Notes: generated by a model from the letters alone, not told the origin. Shown: positions 34,761-63,935, counted from the stretch's first letter. The stretch is DNA of 64,000 nucleotides from an uncultured Candidatus Saccharibacteria bacterium (GCA_965231055.1 OZ246411.1:665875-729874), one strand, 5' to 3'. Numbers and translations are program-made.

Positions 34761-34834
34761 TCCGGGATCGTCTAACGGTAGGACAGTGGACTCTGGATCC
34801 ACTAATCTTGGTTCAAATCCAAGTCCCGGAGCCA
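34761..34834 (+). tRNA. tRNA-Gln (anticodon CUG), CCA encoded
   Basis: Manual fold: acceptor TCCGGGA/TCCCGGA, D-arm GTCT-AACGGTA-GGAC, anticodon arm GTGGA-CTCTGGA-TCCAC (CTG), variable TAAT, T-arm CTTGG-TTCAAAT-CCAAG, discriminator G, CCA. Confidence 0.85.
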
Positions 34835-42771: not shown

Positions 42772-42845
42772 GCGGGATTGGTCTAGTGGTAGGACGTAAC
42801 CTTCCCAAGGTTGAGGCGCGAGTTCGATTCTCGTATCCCGCTCCA
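42772..42845 (+). tRNA. tRNA-Gly (anticodon CCC), CCA encoded
   Basis: Manual fold: acceptor GCGGGAT/ATCCCGC, D-arm GTCT-AGTGGTA-GGAC, anticodon arm TAACC-TTCCCAA-GGTTG (CCC), T-arm GCGAG-TTCGATT-CTCGT, discriminator T, CCA. Confidence 0.85.
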
Positions 42846-42892: not shown

Positions 42893-42968
42893 GCCGGCAT
42901 AGCTCAGTTGGTAGAGCAACCCCTTCGTAAGGGGTAGGTCATCAGTTCAAGTCTGATTGCCGGCTCCA
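42893..42968 (+). tRNA. tRNA-Thr (anticodon CGU), CCA encoded
   Basis: Manual fold: acceptor GCCGGCA/TGCCGGC, D-arm GCTC-AGTTGGTA-GAGC, anticodon arm ACCCC-TTCGTAA-GGGGT (CGT), variable AGGTC, T-arm ATCAG-TTCAAGT-CTGAT, discriminator T, CCA. Confidence 0.85.
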
Positions 42969-48428: not shown

Positions 48429-51134
48429 TTATTTATTCTCGATTATTTTTTTATTAAAAACTTCTTCAAATTTTTCAAACAAAGCGCTATTTATACGTCC
48501 TTCATTGAAAAATGGCAAGCCTATTAATTTGAATTGTTTGTTTTGAATTTTTAGATTTACTATGTGTTTTTTTTCAATATTTAATAGTAGTTTTTGCTTC
48601 CACCCCTCTTTTGACTTTTCAAAAGTCTTTTTATCATCCATAAACTGATCACCTTTCGGCTCAATGAATATCTGATATATATTTTCCTTTTTACTCTTTT
48701 TACTAGTTAAGAACATAACAAAATCGGGATAAAAAGGTTCTCCGTTTTCAAAACTATAAATTTTAAAATGGTGCTCATTTCTTATAAGCGCAACATTGTC
48801 GTATTTATTACTGAGTTTTTCCATTGATTTCTCCAAAAAACGCATCAACGCTTCTTCCTCGCTAGTTCCCCAGATTTCATTTTGGGCAAACCAGCTTTTA
48901 TCTGAAAAATTAAAATCGTGCATTTCTTTGGCGCGAGGGCTATCCTGATCTAATTGAAGAATTTTGGCGTTTTCAAACACTTTATTGATCAAAAATGCCT
49001 TGAATTCTGTTGTTCCGTAAAATTCTCTCTTTTCTTTTCCTAAACTATCCAGTATCTTATCAACAACAAATTTTGTTATGTTGAGTTTATTTATCTGGGT
49101 AAGATTTTGTAATGACTCTGCGGTTGCTTTTACATTTACAGAAACACCACCTAAATATTTTTTACTGGTAATAAATTCATCAATGGATTTAAGATTGGGA
49201 AGATGTTTTATGAGCGTGTTAAACCTACCCGATGGATTATGAGATAAAGCACTTCGTATTATATTGCAATCAAAGTCAGTTAAGCTAAATTCTTTTATTT
49301 GAACTTTGGTGTTTTGACCTACGCCAGTTTTTTTATTGAAAATTTCTGATTCCAAGGATTCATAAGTCGGCAATGTGTAAATATTGGCTTCCATGTCTTT
49401 ATTAAATTGCACGCCTATATCTTTTAACCCGAAAACGTTATCTCCCGTGTTGACGTGGCGAGAATTGAGAAATATATAACCTTTTTTCCACAAACCTGTT
49501 TTTTTGAAATCCTCTTTGATTTCTAATTTTCTTTGCACTGTGTGAGATGGAATTATACCTTCTTTAACCAAAGCACCCTCTAATTCCTGTATGTATCTTG
49601 AATTAGTTACGCTGTGATAATAAAGTTGTTCGAGTATTCTAAGTTCGTTAGAAATATCATCGTTAAATTTTCGCCTATATTTGTCGGCAAAATTCTTTAT
49701 AGTAAATGGGTAATACCTAGCGCCTCTCCCAATAAGTTGGGCCTCCTGCACAGTTGTCTTACCGGGTCTGTTGTTTTTTGCATCTCTACTGTTGTAAAGT
49801 CGCACAATATCAAAAAGATTTAAAACATCCCAACCTTCATTTAGTTTTTCTGTAGCAAATATTGCACGTATTTGATTATTGGAATCTTCCAATGAGTTTA
49901 ACAGTATTTGTTTTTGCTCTAAGTCTTTATCATCATCAACAGTAAGGCACTTATCCGGAGCAAAATCATTTTTTATCTCTCCAACCAAATTAGCCAACGT
50001 AATTTTATTTTGCTTGAAGAAAGAAAGAGCTTTTTTTACAACATTTGATTCACCGGATTCTGCCAACAGTTCCATCCTTAAAATATCTTTTACTTCTAGC
50101 GCAGTAATGAATTTATGAAAATTTTCTTTGAATTGACTAGATACCACTATTTGAGGATCAAAAGTGTTGTTATCCTGTTTCCGTGGACTTGTGACTCGAT
50201 TAGCCTTAAATAGCACTACTGGTTTGAGTGAGATTTTATTCTTCTCAGCTACTTTTAACCTATATTGAGATATTAAAATAGCTACAAGCACCCTATCCAT
50301 TAAAGGGGCATCTACTTGTTTTGTTGAAACTTCCTTTGAAAAACCATCAAGTCTGTATTGCTTTAAATCATAACGATAAATCGCCTTGTCTTTATATTTT
50401 TCCAAAATTTCGGGGTATTCTTGTTCAAGTCTTGCCGTAGCTGTAAACTCTAAAAGCACATTATCTTTTTGATCATTAGCGTTTAAAATTCGCATCACTG
50501 TTTTTTCCCAATTCTGTCTATCTTCAGCTTCAGCCTTACTGAGTTTACCATTAGTTTCTGCGGATAGATTGTGCGCCTCATCTGCTATTAAGACTATTTT
50601 TTTATCTTCGATACCTTCATAAGTGAGTGCGTTTTCTCCTGCAAAATTAAAGCGAGAATGCAAAAGAGCTGTTGTGGAAAAAATAATGTTTATATCGTCT
50701 TCATTTACCCCTTCAAAATTATCAACTTTTTTGATTTTTATTTCCTGTCCGCTAAACATGATTTTGTCGGCAAACAAATATTTTTTAGAACTTGGATCAA
50801 GAAAATTGGCTTTGGTTTTTTGGATAATGTTGCCAAGACGAGTAAAGAAAATGAAATTGCGATAACCTTTTTGGTAAAAATACAAAATATTAGCCGCCAT
50901 GATGAGCGTCTTGCCAGAGCCGGTCGCCATATTGAACATCAGATGAATAGGCTTTTGTTTTTGGTGATATTCTTCACAATAATAATAAAACCTCCCCAAT
51001 GCTTCTTTTTGATATTCACGCACAGAAAAATCTGGATTGAGATTCTTTAAAACATCGGCTTTTTCAGTCGCTTTGTTTTTAAAAACATCAGCACCGGCAA
51101 AGTTTTTGTATGAATTGAATTCATCGTAAAGCAT
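48429..51134 (-). CDS. res: Type III restriction enzyme, Res subunit (SF2 helicase-like + endonuclease)
   Basis: Helicase motif I MATGSGKTLIMA, motif II LIADEAHNL, and motif VI QLIGRGARY, with a C-terminal nuclease region. Start set at the internal Met (MLYDEF); the ORF is open from 51188. Confidence 0.8.
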   Translation of the reverse strand: MLYDEFNSYKNFAGADVFKNKATEKADVLKNLNPDFSVREYQKEALGRFYYYCEEYHQKQKPIHLMFNMATGSGKTLIMAANILYFYQKGYRNFIFFTRLGNIIQKTKANFLDPSSKKYLFADKIMFSGQEIKIKKVDNFEGVNEDDINIIFSTTALLHSRFNFAGENALTYEGIEDKKIVLIADEAHNLSAETNGKLSKAEAEDRQNWEKTVMRILNANDQKDNVLLEFTATARLEQEYPEILEKYKDKAIYRYDLKQYRLDGFSKEVSTKQVDAPLMDRVLVAILISQYRLKVAEKNKISLKPVVLFKANRVTSPRKQDNNTFDPQIVVSSQFKENFHKFITALEVKDILRMELLAESGESNVVKKALSFFKQNKITLANLVGEIKNDFAPDKCLTVDDDKDLEQKQILLNSLEDSNNQIRAIFATEKLNEGWDVLNLFDIVRLYNSRDAKNNRPGKTTVQEAQLIGRGARYYPFTIKNFADKYRRKFNDDISNELRILEQLYYHSVTNSRYIQELEGALVKEGIIPSHTVQRKLEIKEDFKKTGLWKKGYIFLNSRHVNTGDNVFGLKDIGVQFNKDMEANIYTLPTYESLESEIFNKKTGVGQNTKVQIKEFSLTDFDCNIIRSALSHNPSGRFNTLIKHLPNLKSIDEFITSKKYLGGVSVNVKATAESLQNLTQINKLNITKFVVDKILDSLGKEKREFYGTTEFKAFLINKVFENAKILQLDQDSPRAKEMHDFNFSDKSWFAQNEIWGTSEEEALMRFLEKSMEKLSNKYDNVALIRNEHHFKIYSFENGEPFYPDFVMFLTSKKSKKENIYQIFIEPKGDQFMDDKKTFEKSKEGWKQKLLLNIEKKHIVNLKIQNKQFKLIGLPFFNEGRINSALFEKFEEVFNKKIIENK

Positions 51135-51188
51135 AATATTTTTTACTCGCTTATGCAAAAACCATCTTATTATTATCCATAGTGGCAA

Positions 51189-51908
51189 CTACAATGCCCT
51201 CTTATCACGATCTGCATGATTAATACTAATATTTTTAAGCACTTTTGAAATAATGCCCGAAATTTTTGTTACAATTCCATCCTGCATTGTAAAGCAAAAC
51301 GTGGCAACAATTACCGCAAGTACAATAAAGATGTTGGCTTTAGGAAAAAAAACTGCAATAAACAATAAAATAACTCCGGTGGCAAATAAAAAAATTACAA
51401 CTTCGCCAAAAAAGTCCATGACTACAATCTTTTTGTTTTGCTCCAACATACGATCACGATCGTAATCGAGTTTTAACTTTTTATATAGCGGTAATTCTTG
51501 AGATTCTTTTATGTAAGATTGTTCGATCCCCTCAGTAAAAGGTTTTTCAAGATATTTTACAATGAGATCCATTTTTTCTTGCGAGATTTCTCGATATTTT
51601 TGTGCTAACTTTTCTAGCCCCATCTTATCGCTATCCAACACCTCTTTTAACCATATTAAAATTAAAAATACAGTTAAAAATAGTATTATTAAACCCAGTT
51701 TAAAATAAGTAGCATTATAGGTGTTTTCTATAAAGAAGCTTAAGCCTGCAAAACCCAGAATAATAATTGTTATATGCTGATAAAAGGATCGCCTTTGATT
51801 AATATTGGAAATAATCTGATTCAAAAAATCACGACCACTCTGAGAATGCACAGAATTCATCGTTTCATATTCTTTTTTTAGGAAATCTTTGAATTCTAAA
51901 CTATTCAT
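51189..51908 (-). CDS. Hypothetical polytopic membrane protein encoded between mod and res
   Basis: 239 aa with 2 TM + charged coiled-coil-like segment + 2-3 TM. Its start overlaps the mod stop and its stop abuts the res start, so it is translationally coupled inside the R-M operon. Confidence 0.4.
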   Translation of the reverse strand: MNSLEFKDFLKKEYETMNSVHSQSGRDFLNQIISNINQRRSFYQHITIIILGFAGLSFFIENTYNATYFKLGLIILFLTVFLILIWLKEVLDSDKMGLEKLAQKYREISQEKMDLIVKYLEKPFTEGIEQSYIKESQELPLYKKLKLDYDRDRMLEQNKKIVVMDFFGEVVIFLFATGVILLFIAVFFPKANIFIVLAVIVATFCFTMQDGIVTKISGIISKVLKNISINHADRDKRAL

Positions 51909-53781
51909 TATAAAATTTATTGTTTAACTTATTATCTTCTTTATTCACTCCGTATTCTTTATCATCAATCTCACTCAAATTTACATAAAGCTGATTTTTA
52001 TCTAAACACTCGATTAAAAACTTCTTTTGATTGGCAACAGATAACTCTGTAAAATCTTTTGCACTAGCGTCAATAGTTTTCGGATCTACTTTATAGCTCA
52101 AGAATGCTATTTCTTTCATCTCACCCCAAAGTTTGACAAGTTCTTTGCTTGTTTTGGCATCTCTAATTTCTCTAATCCATTTTTCATTCCATTCCGCCAG
52201 CTCCATATAAACAAAATCGCCACCGCCTTGCCAGTTTACCGCTTTAGAAATTCCGCCCTGTTCACCGGCAATAACTTTTTTCAATCTCGCTTCCGGCAAT
52301 TCATGGATATAATCCATCTGTTCAATGCCAATGTATTGTCGTCCGGTTTTATGTGCTACCGCCAAAGTTGTGCCACTTCCAGCAAAAAAATCTAAAACTA
52401 AATCATTTCCAACACTTCCTATTTGTAAAATTCTCTGTAATAATTTTTCAGGCTTTGGTGTGTCAAAAATATTTTTTCCTAATAATTTTTTTAGCTCTTC
52501 CTTTGCAGCTTGAGTAGATCCAGAATCTTCATTTGAAAAGATTGTATTGGGTACTATTCCTTGCTGCACCTCGCTCAAAAATATTTTTCTTCTAGGAACA
52601 TTTTTGTCATCTTTGCCAAACCATAATCTATTATCATAGTAGTACTCTAAAAGTTTTTCTTTTGAGTATGCTGGATATCTACCATCTGATGGCGCCCATT
52701 TAACTTTATTTGGGAAAATTATCTCATAATTATTTTTTTCTGAACCACTTTTTGCATCCATTTTTACAGAAACCCATGGGCCCCTTGGATCATTATCTGG
52801 ATTTTTGTAAGTTTTATTTAATTCGTCTGAGCGCTCAAGCAAATTGGGTCGCCAAACTTCTTTATTTCTTGCAAAAACTAAAACGTGATCATGATTTTGA
52901 TTAAAATATTTTGCATCATTTTGCACAACATTTTTCTTGTGCCAGATTATATTTGCTACAAAATTTTCTCTTCCCAAAATATCGTCGCAAAGCACTTTCA
53001 AATAGTGCGATTCGTTATCATCAATATTTATCCAAATACTTCCATCCTCACTCAATAATTGCTTTGCTATTTCCAGTCTATTTTTTATAAAAACCAGCCA
53101 AGAAGAATGATTAAAGCTGTCATTATAACCAAAAGAATCATTTCCAGTATTATACGGCGGGTCAATGTAAATCAATTTCACTTTTCCGGCAAATTCTTTT
53201 TTGAGCGAGGCGAGTGCGAGCAGGTTATTGCCTTTGATAATCAAATTGTCTTTAATTACGCCTTTTTCATCGCGCTTGAAGCCGTCCAGTTTGTGTTCAC
53301 CCTTTTTGTCTATCCGTTTGAAATTGGTAAACACCTTAGCGTCCAGCAAGCGATTGATGTCGTCCGGAGCCAGTGTTTCATTATAAAAAATCTCATCTCT
53401 TTTTTGGTCTTCTTTTGTCATTCCGCCTTCCAAAACACAATCCTTATAGGGCCACGCCAAAACCACTTCCTTGTTTTCGCTCACATATTTATCGCCTGCA
53501 GTTAAACCGATTTTATTTTTGAAAGCAGTATAAGAATCAGGCAAAAATTGTTTGTTGGATATAAAACGGATAAATTTTTCTTTATCAAAAATCAGCGTTT
53601 TTCCCACCTCAAAAAAGAAGTGTTGTTTTGTTGCCTTGTCGGAGAGTAAAAGTTTTATAAGCTCAGGATCATTTTTGCGTGCTAATTCCTGCGCTTGATT
53701 TTTCAATAACGCGCCATCTTGTGAAACAAGACGTTCATCTTTTTTTAATAAATCCACTATTTGTTCAAAAATATTTTTCAT
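51901..53781 (-). CDS. mod: Type III R-M N6-adenine DNA methyltransferase, Mod subunit (beta-class)
   Basis: Motif IV IYIDPPYNTG precedes motif I VLDFFAGSGTTLAVA. 626 aa with a central target-recognition region. Confidence 0.8.
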   Translation of the reverse strand: MKNIFEQIVDLLKKDERLVSQDGALLKNQAQELARKNDPELIKLLLSDKATKQHFFFEVGKTLIFDKEKFIRFISNKQFLPDSYTAFKNKIGLTAGDKYVSENKEVVLAWPYKDCVLEGGMTKEDQKRDEIFYNETLAPDDINRLLDAKVFTNFKRIDKKGEHKLDGFKRDEKGVIKDNLIIKGNNLLALASLKKEFAGKVKLIYIDPPYNTGNDSFGYNDSFNHSSWLVFIKNRLEIAKQLLSEDGSIWINIDDNESHYLKVLCDDILGRENFVANIIWHKKNVVQNDAKYFNQNHDHVLVFARNKEVWRPNLLERSDELNKTYKNPDNDPRGPWVSVKMDAKSGSEKNNYEIIFPNKVKWAPSDGRYPAYSKEKLLEYYYDNRLWFGKDDKNVPRRKIFLSEVQQGIVPNTIFSNEDSGSTQAAKEELKKLLGKNIFDTPKPEKLLQRILQIGSVGNDLVLDFFAGSGTTLAVAHKTGRQYIGIEQMDYIHELPEARLKKVIAGEQGGISKAVNWQGGGDFVYMELAEWNEKWIREIRDAKTSKELVKLWGEMKEIAFLSYKVDPKTIDASAKDFTELSVANQKKFLIECLDKNQLYVNLSEIDDKEYGVNKEDNKLNNKFYNE

Positions 53782-63518: not shown

Positions 63519-63935
63519 AAGACCCAGAAAACCTATAAGCCGGATTCTGTACGCACCTTTTGTGCGCGATAATCATCTATCTCGACTTTGCCTCGCGACA
63601 AAGTTCCTTGCGATTGGATCCCATACTAGATGGGCCCACCAATCTTGCACCAGGTAAAGTTTGCATCTCTCGCTAGTTACTTAGCGAGACTGTGAGCTCT
63701 TACCTCACTCTTTTCACCCTTACCAGTCATACAAAATGCATAACTGGCGGTATTGTCTCTGTTGCACTTGTTCTTAGCCATAAAATTCAAAAGCGAATTC
63801 GCCCCTTGAATAATTTAGCTAGCCACCCGTTAGGTGGTACCATGCCCACAGCAAAGCCGTGGCGGTGTCCGGACTTTCCTCTATTATTGGGCTTTGTAAG
63901 CCAAAATAACAGCGATTATCCAGCTTTCTGGGTCA
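63519..63935 (-). ncRNA. rnpB: RNase P RNA (bacterial type A)
   Basis: Minus-strand transcript contains GAGGAAAGUCCGGAC, AGUGCAACAGAGACAAUACCGCC, GGUAAGGGUGAAAAGAGUGAGGUAAGAGCUCAC and ACAGAAUCCGGCUUAU. All are close matches to the universally conserved M1 RNA regions. P1 pairs GACCCAGAAAGC with GGUUUUCUGGGUC. Confidence 0.85.

What the first reader, a model, noticed from the sequence alone, without database searches (positions are those of the whole stretch)
48429..53781. Type III R-M operon with an unknown 4-5-TM membrane protein inserted between mod and res
mod (51901-53781) and res (48429-51134/51188) are canonical. Between them, overlapping both, is a 239-aa protein (51189-51908) with two N-terminal TM helices, a charged helical segment and 2-3 C-terminal TM helices, and no recognisable domain. 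Type III systems are normally strictly mod-res. A translationally coupled membrane component could be an abortive-infection or phage-exclusion effector, or a membrane tether or regulator of the restriction complex.
Basis: partly seen in the sequence, partly recalled or inferred. Interest (0 to 1): 0.55.

Follow-up and report, generated by a model that had tools for sequence, protein, structure and literature searches.

The report
Swappable defence-gene slot inside restriction operon
A real but uncharacterised four-helix membrane protein sits between the two genes of a type III restriction-modification system, in a position that related systems use as a swappable slot for many different antiviral genes, so it is a good candidate for a new membrane-acting phage-defence protein.

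Summary
On the minus strand lie an intact type III mod (51901-53781), a 239-aa ORF (51189-51908) and an intact res (true start ATG 51134). The ORF overlaps mod by 8 nt but lies 54 nt from res.

The middle ORF is a real gene. An exhaustive HMMER search found 106 cluster representatives of the same length and architecture. AlphaFold gives pLDDT 93 for an all-helical 4-TM protein whose soluble parts are all cytoplasmic. It matches no Pfam, NCBIfam, PADLOC, PHROG, PDB or viral-structure entry.

It is not a dedicated R-M subunit. None of about 155 related Res loci carries it, and relatives sit beside an MmeI-type R-M enzyme, a small methylase, Fic, Rep/recombinase elements or housekeeping genes.

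The main result is that about 73% of loci in this Res clade (74 of 102) carry same-strand cargo between mod and res. The 105 cargo proteins form 61 unrelated clusters, including Shedu, AIPR, OLD-like, PD-Lambda-5, Schlafen, RhuM-Fic, PIN, NYN and GIY-YIG. Borders are cassette-like, and res is 93-96% identical across loci with unrelated cargo.

Embedding is published for Hma, BREX, DISARM and type I R-M. I found no report for type III. The protein is most likely an independent membrane-acting defence candidate, but its function is untested.

The parts
51901..53781 (-). mod: type III DNA methyltransferase, 626 aa. Catalytic DPPY at 53152-53163; AdoMet motif FAGSG at 52372-52386.
   Evidence: Pfam TypeIII_RM_meth + N6_N4_Mtase; PADLOC MTase_III 2.9e-184; motifs
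51901..51908 (-). 8-nt overlap ATGAATAG: the cargo start codon lies inside the last codons of mod (translational coupling).
   Evidence: Sequence. In related loci the cargo ATG is likewise built from Mod's terminal Phe-Tyr-Gly codons.
51189..51908 (-). Cargo gene: 239-aa, 4-TM, all-helical membrane protein of an uncharacterised family.
   Evidence: 106 homologous cluster representatives; alignment A2; AF2 pLDDT 93; no hits in Pfam, PADLOC, NCBIfam, PHROGs, PDB or BFVD
51648..51776 (-). TM hairpin 1 (TM1 aa 45-62, TM2 aa 68-87, 5-residue outer loop), bracketed by conserved R39/R40 and K/R88-E89-x-x-D92-x-D94.
   Evidence: Family-average hydropathy and conservation; AF2 helices H3-62 and H66-121
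51402..51647 (-). Central cytoplasmic helical domain, aa 88-169 (16 K/R, 17 D/E), ending in conserved D165 and E169.
51273..51401 (-). TM hairpin 2 (TM3 aa 170-188, TM4 aa 194-212), followed by a C-terminal amphipathic helix (aa 212-238).
51135..51188 (-). 54-nt spacer between the cargo stop (TAG 51189-51191) and the res start. This is unusually long, since most related loci have 1-7 nt.
48429..51134 (-). res: type III restriction subunit, 901 aa. Helicase motifs GSGKT 50907-50921, DEAH 50571-50582, QLIGRGAR 49716-49739. PD-(D/E)xK nuclease motif (PD...EPK) within 48627-48728.
   Evidence: PADLOC REase_III 1e-109; Pfam ResIII; HI_1054_N/HI_1054 domains; motifs; N-terminus fixed by homologues

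Best explanation
The 239-aa ORF is a genuine gene for a 4-TM, N-in/C-in helical membrane protein of an uncharacterised family, found here only in small-genome Patescibacteria (CPR)-type contexts. It is not a subunit of the type III enzyme. It occupies a cassette-like cargo slot that one clade of type III R-M operons keeps between mod and res.

In related operons the slot holds one to six unrelated genes, many of them recognised antiviral or abortive-infection genes. These are co-oriented and translationally coupled to mod and res. Cargo most likely swaps between loci by homologous recombination in the conserved mod 3' end and the nearly invariant res 5' end.

By position and co-expression, the window's protein is most likely a second-layer defence effector acting at the cytoplasmic membrane. 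The proposed mechanism is that its cytoplasmic helical stalk senses an infection cue. The TM hairpins, ringed by conserved charged residues, would then permeabilise or depolarise the membrane (abortive infection) or block phage DNA entry.

Shown: the gene is real, the fold prediction is confident, the slot is variable and rich in defence genes, and the protein is independent of Mod/Res.
Inferred: the defence role, the membrane mechanism and the recombination route.
For: Gene reality:
- 106 representatives at E<1e-3, 54 at E<1e-10, full-length and 220-260 aa.
- Conserved motifs QRR, (K/R)ExxDxD and LDYxGE.
- AF2 pLDDT 93, pTM 0.76.
- GC3 0.287, matching res (0.292) and mod (0.306), against 0.34-0.40 in the flanking genes.

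Slot:
- 38 of 48 genome loci and 36 of 54 metagenome loci of the close Res clade carry same-strand ORFs between mod and res. None of 19 loci in the distant clade does.
- 105 cargo proteins form 61 clusters.
- Identified cargo: SduA_C (Shedu), AIPR, AAA_15 + OLD TOPRIM, AAA_14 + DUF4143, Schlafen AlbA_2, RhuM + Fic, GIY-YIG + RAMA, NYN, PIN, DUF3800, and PD-Lambda-5_A + D12 methylase.
- 17 clusters are membrane proteins.

Cassette borders:
- Cargo ATG overlaps the mod stop by 8-20 nt, and the cargo stop lies 1-7 nt before the res ATG.
- Between loci with unrelated cargo, homology ends within 0-12 nt of the mod stop and resumes 5-15 nt before the res ATG. Res is 93-96% nt-identical.

Independence from the enzyme:
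- No family member in 80 + 78 related loci.
- Family members sit directly after an MmeI-type R-M gene, two genes after an N6_N4 methylase, after Fic, and beside Rep + serine recombinase modules.

Precedent: PrrC in the type IC EcoprrI locus (PMC12707154), and guilt-by-embedding for Hma, BREX, DISARM and type I R-M, where 96.7% of embedded genes are co-oriented with the host system (10.1101/2024.01.29.577857).

Operon: no internal promoter or terminator signal above chance.
Against: - There is no experimental or homology evidence for any function. PADLOC has no match.
- The family occupies this slot in only 1 of about 75 cargo-bearing loci, so recurrent embedding of the family itself is not shown.
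- About half of the sampled family contexts are plain housekeeping neighbourhoods: between Mur ligases, after H+-PPase and NusA, and near infC.
- The enrichment near methylase genes (3 of 11 contexts) gives only a rough binomial p of 0.004-0.05, and that depends on an assumed base rate.
- No sensor or enzymatic domain is recognisable.
- Roughly half the cargo clusters are themselves unannotated, so the slot is not proven to be exclusively defensive.
Confidence: 0.45

Rival explanations
1. Non-defence hitchhiker. The protein is a CPR-lineage membrane protein with a physiological role unrelated to phage, such as membrane homeostasis or stress. It landed in the mod-res slot by chance and persists because the addictive R-M operon is hard to lose.
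For: - Many family members lie among housekeeping genes: Mur ligases, H+-PPase and NusA, infC, and translation genes.
- It is a singleton in the slot among about 75 cargo-bearing loci.
- It matches no defence model.
Against: - The distribution is patchy, with no fixed synteny across 11 contexts and high divergence (25-37% identity), which is atypical for a housekeeping gene.
- 6 of 11 contexts are within two genes of R-M or methylase, Fic or Rep/recombinase genes.
- Known occupants of the slot are overwhelmingly defence genes.
Confidence: 0.3
2. Superinfection-exclusion type protein. The membrane protein blocks entry of phage or foreign DNA at the membrane rather than killing the cell, giving a pre-restriction layer. 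This is a variant of the defence reading with a different mechanism.
For: - It is a small polytopic inner-membrane protein with tiny outer loops and large cytoplasmic helices.
- It is co-transcribed with an enzyme that attacks incoming DNA.
- Two relatives sit on Rep/recombinase mobile elements, a typical home for exclusion genes.
Against: - No match in PHROGs or BFVD structures.
- No relatives in viral contigs.
- Outer loops of 4-5 residues offer little surface for contacting phage injection machinery.
Confidence: 0.15
3. Dedicated accessory subunit of this type III enzyme: a membrane tether or regulator of the Mod2Res complex.
For: - Tight operon placement with an 8-nt overlap with mod.
- No internal promoter or terminator.
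- The PrrC precedent, a protein that physically associates with its host R-M enzyme (PMC12707154).
Against: - Res homologues at 45-72% protein identity work with unrelated cargo or none, and none has this family.
- The family occurs mostly without type III R-M.
- There is no co-variation between the family and Mod/Res.
Confidence: 0.07
4. Spurious ORF: an overlapping-frame artefact in AT-rich DNA.
For: AT-rich region (GC 0.31), where long ORFs arise easily.
Against: - 106 full-length homologues.
- Very confident structure prediction from their alignment.
- An independent gene caller annotates it.
- Without the ORF there would be a 766-nt untranslated gap, in a clade where mod and res otherwise abut.
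Confidence: 0.01

Closest known systems
Defence genes embedded in multi-gene defence systems ('guilt-by-embedding'; Payne et al. 2024, bioRxiv 10.1101/2024.01.29.577857)
   Same: Extra genes are nested between the core genes of a known defence system in the same orientation. The embedded set is a mix of known defence systems and unknowns, and the cargo is highly diverse across related host systems.
   Different: That work covers Hma, BREX, DISARM and type I R-M; the only 'type III' in its text is DRT type III. Here the host is a type III R-M operon, mostly in uncultivated CPR/DPANN-type genomes. The borders are cassette-exact (cargo ATG built from Mod's last codons). The window's protein matches none of their PDC/HEC models in PADLOC v2.
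PrrC anticodon nuclease embedded in the type IC R-M locus EcoprrI
   Same: A non-R-M gene lies inside an R-M operon and is co-expressed with it. It provides the conceptual model of a back-up abortive effector that fires when the R-M enzyme is inhibited (PMC12707154).
   Different: PrrC is a soluble ABC-ATPase/nuclease in a type I system and is almost exclusively R-M-embedded. The window's protein is a 4-TM membrane protein with no enzymatic domain, sits in a type III system, and is mostly found outside R-M operons. No interaction with Mod or Res is shown.
Small polytopic membrane effectors of abortive-infection systems (for example lambda RexB, Kiwa KwaA, CBASS/Pycsar TM effectors; named from my own knowledge)
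   Same: Size (about 150-250 aa), 2-4 TM helices, and location in defence loci. Their presumed mode of action is loss of membrane integrity.
   Different: No sequence similarity to any PADLOC model and no structural match in PDB or BFVD. No cognate sensor partner gene is conserved next to the family.
Pfam DUF2207_C (predicted membrane protein, C-terminal domain)
   Same: 23 of 61 family members give weak hits (best E = 2e-5) to the profile region that describes a charged helix followed by a TM hairpin.
   Different: All hits are below the gathering score (15-20 bits against 33). The same profile region matches the N-terminal half in some members and the C-terminal half in others, so this is architectural resemblance and not membership. 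DUF2207 itself has no known function.
Canonical type III R-M systems (EcoP15I / HI_1054-1056 type)
   Same: Mod carries TypeIII_RM_meth + N6_N4_Mtase. Res carries the ResIII helicase and a C-terminal PD-(D/E)xK nuclease. mod lies upstream of res in one operon.
   Different: The two genes are separated by a third, unrelated gene, which in this Res clade is the rule rather than the exception.

Membership tests
Type III restriction-modification system | Mod subunit with a type III N-terminal methylase domain and an N6/N4 methyltransferase core carrying DPPY and FxGxG motifs | tested here: met
   Pfam PF12564 6e-24 and PF01555 9e-52; PADLOC MTase_III 2.9e-184; DPPY aa 207-210 and FAGSG aa 466-470
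Type III restriction-modification system | Res subunit with SF2 helicase motifs and a C-terminal PD-(D/E)xK nuclease | tested here: met
   PADLOC REase_III 1e-109 over aa 49-899; GSGKT, DEAH, TATA, QLIGRGAR and PD(803-804)...E825-P-K827, all invariant in alignment A1
Type III restriction-modification system | mod and res adjacent and co-transcribed, mod first | tested here: met
   Same strand, mod upstream, no promoter or terminator above chance between them. They are separated by a 720-nt cargo gene, as in about 73% of loci of this clade.
Type III restriction-modification system | ATP-dependent cleavage of unmethylated DNA and hemimethylation of an asymmetric site | not testable with these tools
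   Needs biochemistry or methylome data
Embedded defence gene (guilt-by-embedding criteria) | Lies between core genes of a known defence system, in the same orientation | tested here: met
   Between mod and res on the minus strand, with an 8-nt overlap with mod
Embedded defence gene (guilt-by-embedding criteria) | The same slot in related systems holds known defence genes | tested here: met
   Shedu, AIPR, OLD-like, PD-Lambda-5, Schlafen, Fic/RhuM, PIN, NYN and GIY-YIG/RAMA
Embedded defence gene (guilt-by-embedding criteria) | The family itself is found embedded in several independent systems | tested here: not met
   Found only once in about 155 related type III loci. One relative abuts an MmeI-type R-M gene but is downstream of it, not embedded.
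Embedded defence gene (guilt-by-embedding criteria) | Not a mobilome or housekeeping function | tested here: inconclusive
   No family annotation at all. Contexts are mixed: defence and mobile-element neighbours alongside housekeeping ones.
Embedded defence gene (guilt-by-embedding criteria) | Measurable anti-phage activity | not testable with these tools
   Needs plaque or toxicity assays
PrrC-type R-M guard | ABC-ATPase N-domain plus an anticodon-nuclease C-domain | tested here: not met
   All-helical 4-TM protein with no ATPase or nuclease domain
PrrC-type R-M guard | Physical association with, and release from, the host R-M enzyme | not testable with these tools
   No multimer prediction or biochemistry was available
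Known membrane Abi effectors (families modelled in PADLOC-DB v2) | Significant match to a family model | tested here: not met
   0 PADLOC families for the window protein. For six relatives there were only E>0.007 noise hits.
Pfam DUF2207_C | Score at or above the gathering threshold (33 bits) with a consistent register | tested here: not met
   The listed hits score 15-20 bits, and the same profile region (about 106-195) aligns to either half of the protein. The window protein itself has no hit.
Phage holin or superinfection-exclusion families | Match to a phage protein family or structure, or presence on viral contigs | tested here: not met
   PHROGs best E = 0.14; BFVD best E = 0.3; four viral-contig scans were empty (sensitive to close relatives only)

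The most novel reading that the evidence does not exclude
One clade of type III R-M operons works as an integrase-free cassette platform. The junction between mod and res captures and exchanges translationally coupled second-line defence genes across CPR bacteria, other phyla and DPANN archaea. The window's 4-TM protein would then be the founding member of a new class of membrane abortive-infection effectors that fire when the surrounding type III enzyme is overwhelmed or inhibited, a PrrC-like guard logic with a membrane effector.
Probability: 0.2. Interest if true: 0.8.

Novelty: new variant of a known kind. Interest (0 to 1): 0.6.

Why it matters
First, it extends the observation that defence systems nest other defence genes to type III R-M systems, which are usually described as strict two-gene operons. 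It does so in CPR/DPANN-type organisms, whose antiviral repertoire is poorly known and which largely lack CRISPR.

Second, the slot gives a ready-made discovery list. Of 61 cargo clusters, roughly half are unannotated and 17 are membrane proteins. These are all candidates for new defence functions, and the window's confidently modelled 4-TM family is a concrete one.

Third, the exact, repeat-free cassette borders and near-identical res genes across distant hosts pose a mechanistic question. It is unclear how cargo is first captured, and that can be studied by comparative genomics.

If the membrane protein proves to be a guard effector, it would link restriction failure to membrane-level abortive infection.

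Tried and rejected
- The word-index homology search with the single protein, and later with the family profile, found almost nothing: self only, then 3 proteins. Only the exhaustive HMMER search revealed the family.
- The search for related loci with family alignments A2 and A3 failed because no conserved 7-10-column stretch exists. Family contexts therefore had to come from 11 exact-protein look-ups.
- Foldseek against PDB and BFVD returned only generic long-helix matches such as BAR domains, V-ATPase stalk and PspA-like proteins, with E >= 0.3. I rejected these as homology.
- A PDB sequence-profile search returned only a designed coiled coil.
- DUF2207_C and DUF3784 sub-threshold hits were rejected as membership.
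- I tested whether other unannotated membrane cargo proteins (L005, L006, L013, L043) are remote relatives of the window's family. They are not: hhalign probability <= 4%.
- I looked for a conserved partner gene next to family members and found none.
- Internal duplication of the family remains inconclusive, with hhalign probability 21%.
- I looked for repeats, att-like sites or phase-variation tracts around the cargo. Only AT-rich chance matches turned up.
- The single-sequence AF2 model of the 498-aa fusion relative was unusable at pLDDT 44, and its extra domain has no Pfam or PDB match.
- Viral-contig scans with four family members were empty.
- Cluster look-ups gave no organism names. Assigning the window to Patescibacteria therefore rests on contig size (0.84 Mb), the gene content of the flanks and the taxonomy of the closest Res homologues.

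Full report
**1. The observation**

Window 48429-53781 carries three consecutive minus-strand ORFs.

- **Mod (51901-53781, 626 aa).** It hits Pfam TypeIII_RM_meth and N6_N4_Mtase and PADLOC MTase_III at 2.9e-184. It keeps the DPPY and FAGSG motifs.
- **Res.** It hits PADLOC REase_III at 1e-109 over nearly its whole length. It keeps helicase motifs GSGKT, DEAH, TATA and QLIGRGAR, and a C-terminal PD...EPK nuclease motif. All of these are invariant among 12 aligned homologues. The nuclease is therefore intact, and the insert is not compensating for a defective Res.
- **Res start.** Homologues all begin MLYDEFN, which fixes the res start at ATG 51134. An independent gene call agrees.
- **Middle ORF (51189-51908, 239 aa).** It overlaps mod by 8 nt (ATGAATAG) and is followed by a 54-nt spacer before res. 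'Overlapping both' is therefore half right.

The three genes share a low-GC signature: GC3 0.29-0.31, against 0.34-0.40 in the flanking murJ, murB and lepA. The module looks like an acquired island set tightly between housekeeping genes. No recombinase, flanking repeats or phase-variation tract is present, and no internal promoter or terminator rises above chance.

**2. The middle ORF is a real gene of an uncharacterised family**

It has no significant hit in Pfam, NCBIfam, PADLOC or PHROGs. The word-index search found only itself. The exhaustive HMMER scan of 1.84 billion representatives found 106 proteins at E<1e-3, 54 of them at E<1e-10. Nearly all are 220-260 aa and align end to end at 22-40% identity.

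The alignment (A2) shows a fixed architecture and a few near-invariant positions:
- R39/R40
- K/R88-E89-x-x-D92-x-D94
- D165 and E169
- F175, G72 and Y68

AlphaFold2 with this alignment gives a very confident all-helical model (pLDDT 93, pTM 0.76). Two long helices (3-62 and 66-121) form TM hairpin 1 and continue as a cytoplasmic stalk. Two short helices follow, then TM hairpin 2 (167-187 and 193-208), then a C-terminal amphipathic helix.

Family-averaged hydropathy supports four TM segments with outer loops of only 4-5 residues. The N-terminus, the central domain (16 K/R, 17 D/E) and the C-terminus are therefore all cytoplasmic. The conserved charged residues all map to the cytoplasmic membrane face (topology is inferred).

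Searches for relatives of the fold found nothing meaningful:
- Foldseek against PDB and BFVD gave best E values of 0.5 and 0.3, on generic long-helix proteins.
- A PDB profile search found only a designed coiled coil.
- Sub-threshold DUF2207_C hits in 23 of 61 members match either half of the protein, so they reflect architecture rather than membership.
- An internal duplication is only weakly suggested.

**3. It is not a component of the type III enzyme**

I collected 80 genome loci and 78 metagenome loci encoding Res relatives. None encodes a member of the family.

Eleven family members with usable context sit in very different places:
- directly after an MmeI-type R-M gene
- two genes after a small N6_N4 methylase
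- after a Fic gene
- twice beside the same Rep (REP_ORF2-G2P) plus serine-recombinase module
- between Mur ligases
- after H+-PPase
- near infC
- as a 485-498-aa fusion behind an HTH_3 gene

There is no conserved partner gene. This distribution argues strongly against a tether or regulator dedicated to Mod/Res.

**4. What the position means**

In the close Res clade (roughly 45% protein identity or more, N-terminus MLY[DE]xF), most loci carry one to six same-strand ORFs between mod and res:
- 38 of 48 genome loci
- 36 of 54 metagenome loci
- 0 of 19 loci in the more distant clade (about 36% identity), where mod and res overlap directly

Some contigs occur in both collections, so the pooled 74 of 102 is approximate.

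Including the window's own copy, the 105 cargo proteins from 75 loci fall into 61 BLAST clusters, and 17 clusters have predicted TM segments. Identified cargo comprises:
- Shedu SduA_C (several loci)
- AIPR
- an OLD-type AAA_15 + TOPRIM protein
- AAA_14 + DUF4143
- Schlafen AlbA_2 (± HATPase_c_4)
- RhuM + Fic
- GIY-YIG + DUF4357/RAMA
- NYN, PIN and DUF3800
- a complete PD-Lambda-5 pair (A plus a D12 methylase)

The other unannotated membrane cargo proteins are unrelated to the window's family. A link to a shared cargo pool does exist: the ORF downstream of the family member in the MmeI locus is homologous to the mod-res insert of L049.

A Chryseobacterium plasmid also has a 145-aa hypothetical gene wedged between mod and res, so the slot is not confined to CPR. 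Bacillus and Streptococcus relatives are canonical.

**5. Cassette-like borders and turnover**

In most cargo-bearing loci the first cargo ATG is formed from the conserved Mod C-terminal Phe-Tyr-Gly codons (TTTT-ATG-G). This gives overlaps of 8, 11, 14, 17 or 20 nt. The last cargo stop lies 1-7 nt before the res ATG.

I compared pairs of loci with unrelated cargo by BLASTN. Homology ends within 0-12 nt of the mod stop and resumes 5-15 nt before the res ATG. Res is 93-96% identical over 2.5-2.7 kb.

Mod itself is mosaic. Its ends are conserved and the middle, presumably the target-recognition domain, is non-homologous. The record titles of these MAGs span several CPR lineages, Omnitrophota and DPANN archaea.

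Conserved flanks around non-homologous cargo are what cassette exchange by homologous recombination would produce. That is inferred, not shown. How a new gene is first captured with such exact borders, with no integrase or repeats, is unexplained.

**6. Mechanism proposed**

These points are shown:
- the gene is real and conserved
- the structure prediction is confident
- the gene is co-oriented and translationally coupled within an intact type III operon
- the position is a variable slot rich in defence genes
- the protein is independent of Mod/Res

I infer that the protein is an autonomous second-layer defence factor expressed together with the R-M enzyme. Its whole soluble mass is cytoplasmic, its outer loops are minimal, and a belt of conserved acidic and basic residues sits where the stalk meets the TM hairpins. 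The most economical model is therefore a membrane effector. Its cytoplasmic helices would sense an infection-associated cue, and its TM hairpins would then compromise the membrane barrier (abortive infection). Blocking of DNA entry is a less favoured variant.

A PrrC-like logic, with activation when the neighbouring R-M enzyme is inhibited, is possible but has no direct support. The main rival is a non-defence hitchhiker (0.3). It rests on the many housekeeping contexts and on the family occurring only once in this slot.

**7. Comparison with what is known**

Nesting of defence genes inside defence systems is established. PrrC lies in the type IC EcoprrI locus (PMC12707154). [quoted passage not shown]

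Type III R-M is not among the host systems treated there, and my literature searches found no description of a mod-res cargo slot. The library is incomplete, so this is absence of evidence only. A type III system that itself triggers cell death on Ocr (EcoR22I) is known (10.1101/2023.04.06.535777), but it uses only mod and res.

I therefore classify the finding as a new variant of a known kind. It has a new host system and lineage for embedding, unusually exact cassette borders, and a new membrane-protein family that has not been described as a candidate defence gene.

**8. Verdict**

The defence-effector idea is plausible, the idea that the insert is exceptional is wrong for this clade, and the tether/regulator idea is unlikely.
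- Interest is 0.6. The single gene is an untested candidate, but the slot it reveals is a broad, testable and apparently unreported feature of type III R-M systems in poorly studied lineages.

Noticed in passing
L002-L059 and L095-L170 (res genes): Res genes of this clade are 93-96% nt-identical over 2.5-2.7 kb between MAGs labelled as different CPR lineages. Relatives also occur in Omnitrophota and DPANN archaea (L021 Woesearchaeota, L048 Pacearchaeota, L063 Nanoarchaeia). This implies very recent and wide horizontal transfer, or possibly some binning cross-contamination.
   Followed up: partly
mod genes of L001-L041 (window 51901-53781): mod is mosaic between loci. The N-terminal ~850 nt (81-86%) and the last ~450-560 nt (73-82%) are conserved, and the middle is non-homologous, presumably through target-recognition-domain swapping. 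It is a second variable module in the same operon.
   Followed up: partly
L086:6705-7190 and L049:5285-5998: The 161-aa ORF downstream of a family member next to an MmeI-type R-M gene is homologous (E = 9e-14) to the 2-TM protein embedded between mod and res in L049. This hints at a shared pool of R-M-associated cargo genes.
   Followed up: partly
L085:286-2670 and L093:7732-10058: Two family members lie beside the same module of a REP_ORF2-G2P replication protein plus a large serine recombinase, probably a small integrative or plasmid-like element in CPR genomes.
   Followed up: no
L094:6001-7458 (P0232; also P0144, P0231): A 485-498-aa fusion carries the 4-TM family domain plus a ~260-aa C-terminal half with no Pfam or PDB match, preceded by an HTH_3 regulator gene. 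The single-sequence AF2 model was unusable (pLDDT 44).
   Followed up: partly
L173 (NZ_MN657149.1, Chryseobacterium plasmid pA2BH1) 4501-4938: A 145-aa hypothetical gene is wedged between mod and res, with its stop overlapping the res start, and is followed by a 1612-aa AAA protein and a helicase. The mod-res slot therefore also exists outside CPR, in a cultured organism.
   Followed up: no
L055:1422-4947: This is the largest slot seen: six ORFs over 3.5 kb between mod and res, including Shedu (SduA_C) and DUF3800 proteins plus four small unknowns.
   Followed up: no
window 51135-51188: The 54-nt spacer between the cargo stop and the res ATG is unusually long for this clade, where most loci have 1-7 nt. 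It may be a scar of an earlier cargo exchange or a ribosome-loading region.
   Followed up: no
L081:5929-8697: Res is split into two ORFs by a frameshift or pseudogenisation. It first looked like an embedded gene and was excluded.
   Followed up: yes
window 63520-63931 (-), 34761-34834, 42772-42845, 42893-42968: Bacterial RNase P RNA class A (200 bits) and three tRNAs: Gln-CTG, Gly-CCC and Thr-CGT. These are ordinary housekeeping RNAs.
   Followed up: no
alignment A2 (window protein aa 12-82 vs 137-208): There is a weak hint that the family arose by duplication of a unit made of a cytoplasmic helix, a basic motif and a TM hairpin (hhalign probability 21%, E = 0.001). This fits the DUF2207_C sub-threshold hits landing on either half.
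   Followed up: partly
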